Source: Elusimicrobiota bacterium (GTDB lineage Bacteria; Elusimicrobiota; Elusimicrobia; 2-01-FULL-59-12). Taken from it: a stretch of 24,742 bases of DNA. The notes below the pieces were generated by a model. The model saw only the letters and a program-made list of their open reading frames with translations. It made no database searches and was not told the DNA's origin. Below, in pieces: positions 6,975 to 21,827 of the stretch; position 1 is the first letter of the stretch, and each line of letters begins with the position of its first letter. Both the position numbers and the translations under genes were made by a program. The DNA lies in the NCBI GenBank assembly GCA_041486625.1, contig JBGPLV010000001.1, positions 1 to 24,742 of the forward strand, in the 5' to 3' direction.

Positions 6975-7352
6975 ATGGCGAAAATCTTAGTAGTGGATGA
7001 CGACAAAAGCATTGTCGACCTGCTGCAGGCGCTCTTGACCCACAAAGGTCACGAAGTTTACATCGCGATGGATGGCAAAGCGGGGCTGGCCGCGGCCAGG
7101 CAGGAGAAGCCCGATCTCATCATCCTGGACGTGATGATGCCGGAAATGGATGGGTTCACGGTCAGCGGGCTGCTCTTTCAGGATCCGTCCATGAGGATGA
7201 TCCCGGTACTGATCCTCACCGCCCAGGGACACACGCGCAATATTTTTGAGCTGGTGCCGAACGTCCGTTTCTACATCCATAAACCCTTCGGGCCTCAGGA
7301 CCTGCTCGAAAAAGTCCGGACGCTGCTGCAAACCCAATCCAAAGCCGCCTGA
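6975..7352 (+). CDS. Single-domain response regulator (receiver only)
   Basis: ILVVDDD, PDLIILDVMMPEMDG, ILTA and YIHKPF motifs. Confidence 0.93.
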   Translation: MAKILVVDDDKSIVDLLQALLTHKGHEVYIAMDGKAGLAAARQEKPDLIILDVMMPEMDGFTVSGLLFQDPSMRMIPVLILTAQGHTRNIFELVPNVRFYIHKPFGPQDLLEKVRTLLQTQSKAA

Positions 7353-16515: not shown

Positions 16516-16524
16516 TGCTATAAT
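16516..16524 (+). promoter_or_regulatory. Extended -10 promoter (TGcTATAAT) of the left tRNA half
   Basis: 5 nt upstream of C1 of the tRNA fragment. Confidence 0.7.
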
Positions 16525-16529
16525 AGCGT

Positions 16530-16606
16530 CGCGGGGTGGAGCAGTCTGGCATGCGCTTTCCTCTCGTGCGCAAGCCCCACGGTCGTAAGTGGGGTAGCTC
16601 GTCGGG
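16530..16606 (+). pseudogene. 5' half of initiator tRNA-Met with a 45-nt D-loop insertion (attL-like)
   Basis: 16530-16549 plus 16595-16606 match 21489-21520 at 31/32 nt; insertion at 16550-16594; no 3' half follows. Confidence 0.85.
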
Positions 16607-16715
16607 GAAGATTCATAATTCTATCTACTTTTAGATCTATTTAGCTCTTCTACGTTGCGTTTAATACCCCTATTTCGTCCTGTTTAGCCCGCCTTCGCTG
16701 GACCGAGTTGTAGAG

Positions 16716-16745
16716 CCGATCAGAGTTCCGATCAGCACCGATGAG
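16716..16745 (+). repeat. CCGATCAG direct repeats, left cluster (putative integrase arm-type sites)
   Basis: CCGATCAG at 16716 and 16728, CCGATGAG at 16738. Confidence 0.7.
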
Positions 16746-16820: not shown

Positions 16821-17846
16821 GTGCCTTACAAACCCTGTTTTACGATCACCTCTGAAATTCTACGGCGCCTGGAAACGATCCAGGCGTTGCATGCACGCAT
16901 CCAGGCCGCGGCTATAAAGCTCCCGGCACTGCCGCTCATCCAAAAGGATGTGGTTGTACGTTCCGCCCACGGATCAAGCGCGATCGAAGGTAATCCTCTG
17001 ACGTTGGAGGAAGCTCGGACGGTACTGGAGGGGAAAGATGTCCCCACCGCCACGCGCCGTTCACTTCAGGAAATCCGAAATGCCGCGGCGGCGATGAAAT
17101 TTATTCAGCGTCAAGGCGATGCCAAACTCATCCGCGAAGACGATGTCTTCAAAATTCATACTTTATTGGGTGCCGGAGATGCTCTAGACCGAGGACCGAT
17201 CGGGGCCTACCGCACGTACGGAGTTCAGGTGGGAGGCCATATCGCCCCACATTTTTCCGATGTCCCGCATTTTATGAAAGAGCTTCTGGAATGGCTTAAC
17301 AGCGAAGCTGCTCAGTGGCCGGCGGTCGTCAGCTCAGCGGTACTTCATTTCCGTTTTGAGTTTATTCATCCTTTTGGAGACGGCAATGGTCGTGCGGGCC
17401 GAGCGCTGGCGGCTTGGGAGCTGTACCGCCGGAAGTTTGATAGCCAACATATCTTCGCTGTCGATGAGACGCTCTGGAACAATCGGCGTCTTTATTATTC
17501 GGCTCTGGACCGCACGCAAAAACACCAACAGCAAGACTTATCTTCGTGGATTGAATTTATGGCGGAAATGGTGGAGATCACGCTTGATCAAACGTGGAAA
17601 CGCATGGATGATCTTCCACAGGCGAAGTCCCGTGAGAAGATTCATCTGACGCCACGGCAAGAAAAGCTGTTGAAACTTCTTCGCACTGGGCCTATGAGGC
17701 CCTCCGAGCTTCAAAAAGAATTGGAAGTCACCAAAGGCGGTTTACACTTTATGCTGAAGCCCCTACTCCACGCTGGACTCGTGCAGCGCGCAGGCGGCTA
17801 TAAAACGGGTGTATACCGCATCCCTGACGCACAAGAAAAAGTCTAA
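16821..17846 (+). CDS. Fic-family protein with N-terminal inhibitory motif and C-terminal winged HTH
   Basis: Canonical HPFGDGNGRAGR motif, SSAIEG (S/TxxxEG/N) motif, and LTPRQEKLL...ELEVTKGGLHFMLKPLLHAGLV wHTH. Confidence 0.93.
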   Translation: MPYKPCFTITSEILRRLETIQALHARIQAAAIKLPALPLIQKDVVVRSAHGSSAIEGNPLTLEEARTVLEGKDVPTATRRSLQEIRNAAAAMKFIQRQGDAKLIREDDVFKIHTLLGAGDALDRGPIGAYRTYGVQVGGHIAPHFSDVPHFMKELLEWLNSEAAQWPAVVSSAVLHFRFEFIHPFGDGNGRAGRALAAWELYRRKFDSQHIFAVDETLWNNRRLYYSALDRTQKHQQQDLSSWIEFMAEMVEITLDQTWKRMDDLPQAKSREKIHLTPRQEKLLKLLRTGPMRPSELQKELEVTKGGLHFMLKPLLHAGLVQRAGGYKTGVYRIPDAQEKV

Positions 17847-18153
17847 TGCAGCACCGTCCTCTGCCTGAAGTCGCTGAAGGCGACTTAACTCGCCGGTGCA
17901 GTCCCGACAAAATAGCTCGCCATCGGCGAGCGATATAGGGGACGGGACAGCGTTACGCGCACGGTCGGAAGGCGGCTCCTGCCGCCCACCTCTACCGCCG
18001 CACCCGATCGGCTTGCCAGGCCCGAGCGGGCGCCTCTCCCCCGGCCACGTCCGCCAAGCAGCATTGTCTCTGGATAAACAACTCCCCTTAGCCACTCCAT
18101 CAATTCAGCAGCCCCTTCCCGTTCCCGTCCTTATTGCCGAAAAAGTATCCTAG

Positions 18154-18173
18154 CCGATCAGAAATCCGAACAT
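18154..18173 (+). repeat. CCGATCAG repeat, internal cluster
   Basis: CCGATCAG at 18154 and a degenerate CCGAACAT 12 bp later at 18166. Confidence 0.5.
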
Positions 18174-18277
18174 CGGAGTAAAATGAAGTGTAACGAACTA
18201 CTATGAAATCCCCGCAAAAACAGCCAAAATAGCACCTAGCTTAAACGAAGACTGGTAGCTTCTAAGGCTAGGTCCTA

Positions 18278-21474: not shown

Positions 21475-21483
21475 TGCTATAAT
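21475..21483 (+). promoter_or_regulatory. Extended -10 promoter (TGcTATAAT) of the intact tRNA
   Basis: 5 nt upstream of C1, the same spacing as at 16516. Confidence 0.75.
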
Positions 21484-21488
21484 GGCTT

Positions 21489-21827
21489 CGCGGGGTGGAG
21501 CAGCCTGGTAGCTCGTCGGGCTCAATTCCGCAGAATCGAAGTCCAATCCGCCAATTAGATTCTGCGGTGGGCAACGCGTGGAGAAATCCGCGCGGGTTCT
21601 CCTGTCAAAGTCGGGGAAGCCACTAGCGGTGGTAATCCCGAGCCAAGGTCGCTAGAAGTTTAGCGACAAGGTGTAGAGACTTGATGGCAGGTACCCTAGC
21701 GCCGCACGGCGGCAAGGGTAAAGGGAAAGTCCAGACCACAAACTGGCTGATGTTTGGCGAGGCGACGAAAGCCGAAGTGGTAAGCATAACCCGAAGGTCG
21801 TAGGTTCAAATCCTACCCCCGCAACCA
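21489..21827 (+). tRNA. Initiator tRNA-Met (CAT), intron-containing
   Basis: Exon 1 (21489-21522) plus exon 2 (21785-21827) give a 77-nt CGCGGGGTGGAGCAGCCTGGTAGCTCGTCGGGCT/CATAACCCGAAGGTCGTAGGTTCAAATCCTACCCCCGCAACCA, with C1:A72 mismatch, GGG/CCC anticodon stem and encoded CCA. Confidence 0.96.
21523..21784 (+). ncRNA. Group I self-splicing intron (262 nt, no ORF)
   Basis: 5' splice site after U, terminal G. P1 GCU/CA pairs with UGGGC giving a U.G pair at the junction; P2 has a GAAA loop; P3 21601-07/21685-91; P4 21611-16/21636-41; P7 GAGACU 21676-81/AGUCC 21728-32; P8 TACCCT/AGGGTA; P9.0 ACCAC/GTGGT. Confidence 0.93.

What the first reader, a model, noticed from the sequence alone, without database searches (positions are those of the whole stretch)
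16550..16594. 45-nt two-hairpin insertion inside the tRNA D-loop
Seen: the insertion sits precisely between the conserved GG and TAG of the D-loop, with GG at both boundaries. It folds as GCaTGCGC/GCGCAaGC plus CCCCAC-ggtcgtaa-GTGGGG. It is too short for a self-splicing intron. AAGCCCC...GGGGTAG loosely resembles IS200/IS605 subterminal hairpins. Possibilities: the footprint of a mini mobile element, a minimal intron remnant, or a tolerated D-loop expansion that predates island integration. If intact tRNAs elsewhere carry it, it would be a new class of bacterial tRNA insertion.
Basis: partly seen in the sequence, partly recalled or inferred. Interest (0 to 1): 0.65.

Follow-up and report, generated by a model that had tools for sequence, protein, structure and literature searches.

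The report
Tiny double-hairpin element in dead tRNA
The 45 bases are a shortened copy of an apparently undescribed ~53-base double-hairpin mobile DNA element of one family of uncultured Elusimicrobiota; it landed in a leftover half-copy of the initiator tRNA gene, not in a working tRNA, and it carries two internal bases that almost always match the two bases it lands on.

Summary
The insertion is real (contigs of three sequencing runs span it) but is not a new kind of tRNA. It lies in a 5'-half copy of tRNA-fMet at the left end of an integrated island; the complete, intron-bearing gene 5 kb downstream is clean. Relatives hold the same half either empty or with other short palindromes at other positions (4 of 8 halves filled, 0 of 12 intact genes). 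The 45-mer is a loop-deleted copy of a ~53-nt two-hairpin repeat: 52 parsed copies from seven genomes of one Elusimicrobiota family and JGI metagenomes, mostly nested in other REP hairpins, none in an intact tRNA. Both stems covary. Its layout is NN-hairpin-nn-hairpin-NN: the duplicated flanking pair NN and its internal complement nn change together (GA/TC/GA, TG/CA/TG, GG/CC/GG; 49 of 52). Closed into a circle it would be a dumbbell whose nn could act as a 2-base target guide. That mechanism is inferred: no enzyme was found and there is no replication-strand bias. This scan has reported similar mini-elements in broken tRNA copies on other DNA (Omnitrophota, Patescibacteria).

The parts
16550..16594 (+). 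The inserted element (45 nt; family full length 51-54 nt), counted with the right-hand copy of the duplicated GG
   Evidence: absent from matching halves in G001, G002, G007, G008; HMM built without it hits it at E=2.6e-4 in the genome; covariance model R1, whose training alignment included it, 47 bits
16548..16549 (+). Left NN (GG): the conserved D-loop GG, target dinucleotide
   Evidence: parse; identical position in the intact gene
16550..16574 (+). Hairpin A (arms 16552-56 / 16568-72, closing C16550:G16574), loop shortened by 8 nt
   Evidence: family covariation
16575..16576 (+). Internal nn (CC), complementary to both flanking GG; candidate 2-base guide
   Evidence: three-way covariation in 49 of 52 copies
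16577..16592 (+). Hairpin B (CCAC / GTGG stem, 8-nt loop); same loop as the genome's CGTC-type REPs
16593..16594 (+). Right NN (GG), second copy of the duplicated dinucleotide
16516..16524 (+). Extended -10-like box in front of the tRNA half (activity untested)
   Evidence: sequence; repeated before the intact gene at 21475 (D4)
16530..16606 (+). 5' half copy of tRNA-fMet (acceptor 5' strand, D-arm, 5' strand of anticodon stem), interrupted by the element; attL-like junction; not a complete tRNA
   Evidence: no tRNA called even after in-silico excision
16607..16737 (+). Conserved island leader ending in a CCGATCAG pair; follows the tRNA half in relatives too
   Evidence: 71-79% identity in G001, G002, G003, G005
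16821..17846 (+). Fic-domain gene (island cargo)
   Evidence: Pfam PF02661 E=5e-19
18034..18198 (+). C-terminal remnant of a tyrosine integrase
   Evidence: tblastn 55% identity, E=5e-11 to an ORF of L038 that matches PF00589
18278..21096 (-). Restriction-modification genes (Eco57I/N6 methylase and TaqI_C domains; island cargo)
21489..21827 (+). Complete tRNA-fMet gene with a 262-nt group I intron (21523-21784); D-loop has no insertion
   Evidence: ARAGORN with introns; Rfam RF00028 43.7 bits, E=3e-8, below gathering score

Best explanation
A non-autonomous, ~53-nt double-hairpin mobile DNA element inserted into a tRNA-fMet half that an integrase-type island had already made useless. SHOWN: it is one copy of a dispersed family; matching empty sites exist; both stems are conserved by compensatory change; each copy has the layout NN-hairpin A-nn-hairpin B-NN with nn complementary to NN; most targets are pre-existing hairpins (other REPs, tRNA fragments); no copy was seen in an intact tRNA. 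INFERRED (order of events): an island crossed over in the D-arm core of tRNA-fMet, left the native promoter and 5' half behind and rebuilt the gene at its right end; the half then collected the element, which also splits the att core. INFERRED (mechanism): the element leaves as a single-stranded circle that folds into a dumbbell with NN paired to nn; a strand-transfer enzyme encoded elsewhere (an HUH/Y1 nuclease is the nearest precedent) swaps the circle's NN for a target NN next to a hairpin and joins 3' of it, so left NN is target and nn plus right NN belong to the element; guide variants arise by single steps (GA-GG-TG) through wobble or mismatched insertions. The identity and location claim deserves about 0.9, the guide-and-circle mechanism about 0.4; the confidence given is for the former.
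For: Copies: 7 in G000, 1-13 in G001-G004, G007, G008, 6 in JGI metagenomes. Empty halves in G001, G002, G007, G008; other palindromes at other positions in G002, G003, G005; 4/8 halves versus 0/12 intact genes, Fisher p=0.014 (kin not independent). Stems: 93% of cells paired, 8 of 13 pairs with two-sided changes, far above slid controls; nn pairs equally with left NN. Three-way match 34/36 in the first set, 15/16 in copies found afterwards; one copy per target context 14/17 against 5.9 shuffled, p=5e-5. In the two clear exceptions (G000 C106, G001 C423) the mismatch is on the left and nn:right NN stays paired; the third (G001 C105) is a G-T wobble. Empty host REPs are common in G000 (52 and 25). 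By my count, 28 of 35 empty sites fold within the best 5% of random sites. Integrase remnant in the island. Guide-to-target pairing and circular ssDNA intermediates are established for IS608 (PMC5934647, PMC6006769).
Against: No enzyme found: none of 16 Y1-transposase loci holds the element, Y1 genes also occur in relatives without it, neighbours of the copies share no gene family, and the complete genome G002 has 11 copies but only a Y1 remnant. No replication-strand bias in G002 (5 leading, 5 lagging, 1 near the terminus), unlike IS608/ISDra2. Copies with identical cores carry different nn (L047 TC / L060 CC; L059 TC / L061 CC), which fits copying from the target at least as well as an inherited guide. 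Many copies share two host REP types and may have spread as composites, so independent insertions may be only about 17. The window's own target (the D-arm) is not a strong DNA hairpin. The model search favours copies with nn:right NN paired, which biases the exception pattern. No circle or excision was observed.
Confidence: 0.85

Rival explanations
1. Same element, but nn and the second NN are written from the target at each insertion (template switching or repair synthesis across the two hairpin caps: read NN, turn through cap A, read back nn, turn through cap B, read NN again), so there is no inherited guide.
For: Identical cores with different nn; among pairs at core distance 0-1 only 1 of 6 share nn, against 47% overall; no strand bias; no transposase link.
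Against: Only three dinucleotides in 17 contexts, linked by single steps; exceptions keep nn paired to the right NN while the target side differs, which copying from the target does not predict.
Confidence: 0.3
2. An ordinary REP-type dimer or MITE-like repeat with a 2-bp target duplication; the internal match arises afterwards by hairpin correction, and the numbers are inflated by composites spreading with their host REPs.
For: Most copies sit in two host REP types at fixed positions; hairpin B equals the core of the genome's CGTC-type REP; REPs nested in other palindromes are known (PMC3733652).
Against: The match holds in 14 of 17 distinct contexts; a fixed mismatch in hairpin A stays uncorrected in most copies (pair 7:36 unpaired in 20 of 30), so general hairpin perfecting is not at work; no terminal inverted repeats and no GTAG/CGTC tag.
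Confidence: 0.2
3. An RNA-level element: a minimal intron or retro-inserted RNA whose nn pairs with the exon end like an internal guide sequence and is spliced out, or a tolerated D-loop expansion.
For: nn can pair with the upstream flank; 5 copies lie in or near tRNA sequences; the genome has a real group I intron in this tRNA.
Against: No copy in an intact tRNA or a recognisable gene body; copies lie sense and antisense to tRNA sequences (sense here, antisense in L048); the host half stops before the C32-U33 splice site; no Rfam match; 0 of 12 intact tRNA-fMet genes carry any exon insert.
Confidence: 0.04

Closest known systems
REP / BIME / REPIN elements with RAYT (TnpA-REP) (PMC3733652, PMC3116915, PMC2817692, PMC6006769)
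   Same: Short, GC-rich, extragenic hairpins in pairs, stems conserved by compensatory change, nested in other palindromes; hairpin B is shared with this genus's CGTC-type REP.
   Different: No fixed GTAG/CGTC tag; two unlike hairpins joined by a 2-nt linker that varies with the target; 2-nt duplication; 1-13 copies per genome; not found beside any Y1 gene.
IS200/IS605 elements (IS608, ISDra2) and their non-autonomous derivatives (PATEs)
   Same: Hairpins at both ends; an element-internal sequence at the foot of a hairpin complementary to the target-side and end-side sequences; exceptions fit insertion 3' of the target motif.
   Different: Guide would be 2 nt and naturally variable, not a fixed tetranucleotide; the target pair is repeated at the right end; no parent IS found; no lagging-strand bias in G002.
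Small dispersed repeats (SDRs) of Nostocaceae (Elhai et al. 2008, PMC2527708; paper not held, content from memory)
   Same: Very small, structured, precisely inserted repeats of a narrow clade, found in tRNA genes, introns and other repeats, with no known enzyme.
   Different: SDRs are about 21-27 nt and, as I recall, have no target-matching internal dinucleotide; different phylum; sequence relationship not tested.
Double-hairpin elements (DHEs) of fungal mitochondria (described in PMC10085805)
   Same: GC-rich two-hairpin anatomy, intergenic or in structured-RNA genes, presumed mobile, no enzyme known.
   Different: Mitochondrial; no guide/target covariation in the passage read; sequence relationship not tested.

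Membership tests
REP/REPIN-RAYT | Short extragenic hairpin repeat in multiple copies | tested here: met
   7 copies in G000, up to 13 in relatives, non-coding
REP/REPIN-RAYT | Fixed tetranucleotide tag (GTAG or CGTC) at the hairpin foot | tested here: not met
   alignment A2: foot is variable nn, no tag
REP/REPIN-RAYT | Copies flank a RAYT gene | tested here: not met
   no copy in 16 Y1-transposase loci of G000, G001, G002, G003, G007; genomes partly incomplete
REP/REPIN-RAYT | Bound and cut by a RAYT | not testable with these tools
   needs biochemistry
IS200/IS605 non-autonomous derivative (PATE) | Subterminal hairpins at both ends | tested here: met
IS200/IS605 non-autonomous derivative (PATE) | Insertion 3' of a fixed tetra/pentanucleotide without duplication | tested here: not met
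   only 2 nt shared, three variants, repeated at the right end
IS200/IS605 non-autonomous derivative (PATE) | Guide sequence pairing with cleavage sites | tested here: inconclusive
   nn is complementary to both NN in 49/52 but may be copied from the target
IS200/IS605 non-autonomous derivative (PATE) | Ends shared with an autonomous IS in the genome or clade | tested here: not met
   no half-element flanking a gene; no match in plasmids or phages
IS200/IS605 non-autonomous derivative (PATE) | Orientation bias with replication direction | tested here: not met
   G002: 5 leading, 5 lagging, 1 ambiguous; small number
MITE (DDE-type) | Terminal inverted repeats | tested here: not met
   ends pair internally, not with each other
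MITE (DDE-type) | Short target-site duplication | tested here: met
   left NN = right NN in 50 of 52
tRNA intron or expanded-D-loop tRNA | Lies in a complete tRNA gene that is restored by removal | tested here: not met
   host is a 5' half; excision restores no tRNA in any of 36 copies; intact gene clean
tRNA intron or expanded-D-loop tRNA | Spliced or mature transcript | not testable with these tools
   no RNA holder listed
Fungal mitochondrial DHE | Two adjacent GC-rich stem-loops, dispersed, in intergenic DNA or structured RNA genes | tested here: met
   definition from PMC10085805
Fungal mitochondrial DHE | Sequence relationship to described DHEs | not tested
   no DHE sequences held
Cyanobacterial SDR | 21-27 nt repeat related to SDR1-8 | not tested
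   paper not held; length differs (51-54 nt)

The most novel reading that the evidence does not exclude
A minimal, naturally re-programmable mobile DNA: a ~53-nt single-stranded dumbbell circle whose central 2-bp junction serves as target guide (or is rewritten by each target), moved by an enzyme not yet identified, that seeks out hairpins in other repeats and tRNA genes.
Probability: 0.35. Interest if true: 0.7.

Novelty: new variant of a known kind. Interest (0 to 1): 0.42.

Why it matters
It removes a false lead (no bacterial tRNA with a 45-nt D-loop insert) and shows dead tRNA halves acting as traps that record mini-element traffic: four different palindrome families in eight homologous halves. 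How tiny palindromic repeats (REP singlets, SDRs, DHEs) move is a long-open question; this family offers a sharp, testable handle, because the internal dinucleotide predicts the target dinucleotide, so a donor with a changed nn distinguishes a guide from target copying in one experiment. The interest is limited by the missing enzyme, the narrow distribution, and the fact that this scan has already noted several comparable mini-elements elsewhere.

Tried and rejected
Assembly artefact: rejected. One-off insertion: rejected. Exact hairpin B scan of GTDB representatives with the window's own nn: 0 hits; with nn free: 4 stretches, all Elusimicrobiota. Viral contigs, phages, plasmids: no match. Wider phylum: not found outside family f1 among 401 genomes by pattern or 141 by covariance model; these are samples. 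Rfam: nothing at the insert. Autonomous partner: none by Y1 loci, neighbour clustering or half-element search. Replication-strand bias: none. Low-threshold ARAGORN was pure noise and was replaced by the default run. A first parse mis-anchored six copies and was corrected. MAFFT misaligned the window row in A2; its register was taken. Whether the NN/nn/NN rule extends to the other palindrome families in these genomes: looked at, not general. No RNA holder listed, which says nothing on expression. Elhai 2008 could not be read. Paper searches for this element or a dumbbell-REP found nothing fitting.

Full report
Observation. The 45 bases at 16550-16594 sit between the GG and the TAG of a tRNA-fMet D-loop and end in GG. 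They fold into two hairpins (-11 kcal/mol as DNA, z -2.97). Contigs from three public runs span the insert with at most one difference and a fourth covers most of it, so it is in the organism. The closest relatives with names are Elusimicrobiota.

The host is not a tRNA gene. The sequence at 16530-16606 stops before the anticodon loop. The complete tRNA-fMet, with a 262-nt group I intron, is at 21489-21827 and has a normal D-loop. Between them lie a conserved 130-nt leader, a Fic gene, the C-terminal remnant of a tyrosine integrase (18034-18198) and restriction-modification genes. Relatives show the same half followed by the same leader, and some junctions keep only the D-arm core (L039, L040), so the half reads as the left junction of an island that crosses over in the D-arm and rebuilds the gene at its right end (inference). 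Of eight such halves, four are empty (G001, G002, G007, G008) and four carry short palindromic inserts, each of a different family or position (this window, a second half in G002, G003, G005). None of twelve intact tRNA-fMet genes seen has an exon insert (Fisher p=0.014; relatives are not independent). The insert therefore came after the island, into a sequence no longer under selection, and it splits the att core, which may lock that junction (inference).

The insert is a family member. Hairpin B occurs exactly at two other places in this genome and the whole unit, in full length, at many places in relatives. A profile built without the window copy finds it at E=2.6e-4 in the genome; it differs mainly by an 8-nt deletion in loop A. 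A covariance model gives 7 copies in G000, 12 hits in G002 (11 elements), 13 in G007, 13 in G008, 4 in G001, 1 each in G003 and G004, and none in G005, G006, G009, G010. It was not found outside this family in samples of 401 and 141 genomes of the phylum, nor in viral contigs, phages or plasmids.

Anatomy. Every copy reads NN - hairpin A - nn - hairpin B - NN. Both stems are held by compensatory changes: 93% of cells pair, 8 of 13 pairs change on both sides, against at most 67% and 2 pairs when partners are slid. The flanking NN is duplicated and the internal nn is its complement: GA/TC/GA 34 times, TG/CA/TG 10, GG/CC/GG 5 (including the window), 3 exceptions. The rule was drawn from 36 copies (34 fit) and held in 15 of 16 found afterwards; the left NN is not paired in the model that found them. 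Taking one copy per target context, 14 of 17 fit against 5.9 expected (p=5e-5). nn pairs equally well with either NN; with one NN removed and the ends joined, the unit folds as a dumbbell rod.

Targets. Removing the element restores a hairpin in most cases: two host REP types that are common empty in this genome (52 and 25 copies), other palindromes, a duplicated 3' part of tRNA-Leu (L048) and a D-arm-like fragment before tRNA-Val (L083). By my count 28 of 35 empty sites fold within the best 5% of random sites, although the window's own does not. Excision restores no tRNA anywhere, and the tRNAs next to copies are intact without it.

Mechanism. The nearest precedent is IS608, which moves as a single-stranded circle and picks its target by pairing a guide at the foot of a hairpin with the target; changing the guide changes the target (PMC5934647, PMC6006769). 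Here the guide would be two bases. In favour: only three NN types, connected by single steps; two exceptions with the mismatch on the target side and one wobble. Against: identical cores with different nn, no strand bias in the complete genome G002 (5:5), and no link to any Y1 transposase or other gene. Copying of nn from the target at insertion is a close rival. I put the guide-and-circle model at about 0.4, target copying at 0.3, ordinary repeat plus later correction at 0.2, RNA-level models below 0.05. None of these steps was observed.

Comparison and verdict. It works like a REP- or PATE-type non-autonomous hairpin element but fails the membership tests for both (no tag, no fixed target, no parent, no strand bias) and has no terminal inverted repeats. 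By anatomy it recalls fungal mitochondrial double-hairpin elements (PMC10085805) and cyanobacterial SDRs (from memory; paper not held). I found no paper on this family, in a library that lacks most subscription journals. Earlier notes of this scan describe comparable mini-elements in broken tRNA copies of Omnitrophota and Patescibacteria; they are unchecked and not support. Verdict: real, explained as a mini-element in a dead tRNA half; new variant of a known kind; interest 0.42, carried by the target-matching dinucleotide.

Noticed in passing
window 21523-21784: Group I intron in the anticodon loop of the only complete tRNA-fMet found in this assembly (Rfam 43.7 bits); relatives G011 and G025 also seem to have an intron there, most others do not.
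   Followed up: partly
window 18034-18198 and 18144-18269: Tyrosine-integrase C-terminal remnant followed by a CCGATCAG pair and a decayed D-arm core: the island is not integrase-free in origin and may be two stacked units.
   Followed up: partly
L037:6581-6680, L040:8438-8540 and 7245-7295, L009:986-1060: Homologous tRNA-fMet halves carry other palindromic inserts (about 30 nt after the D-stem, about 30 nt in the 3' D-stem, 40 nt in the 5' D-stem); each family also has copies elsewhere in G000.
   Followed up: partly
L046, L049, L050 (G002): Three copies of the element carry a second, ~62-nt double-hairpin inserted in the 3' arm of hairpin A, all inside a host REP: three nested levels.
   Followed up: partly
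G000 about 15 places (e.g. C215:1738, C36:3753); L012:1611: A 20-nt perfect palindrome is scattered through G000, and a one-base variant sits inside the tRNA-fMet group I intron of G011.
   Followed up: no
L030-L034 (G002); about 25 places in G000: A CGTC-type REP family has the same or nearly the same stem-loop as hairpin B, a possible source of that half of the element.
   Followed up: no
window 16550-16594, G000 C106:855-891, L172: The three copies with a shortened loop A all have nn = CC, and two of them are the exceptions to the rule; a short sub-lineage or coincidence.
   Followed up: no
L059:1707-1783: This copy is flanked by an 11-nt direct repeat; either a natural tandem repeat or a longer duplication. 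In L064 the same site has lost the left part of the element.
   Followed up: partly
L036:6977-8668: In G002 a large serine recombinase element sits at the 3' end of the same tRNA-fMet whose 5' end carries the D-arm island.
   Followed up: no
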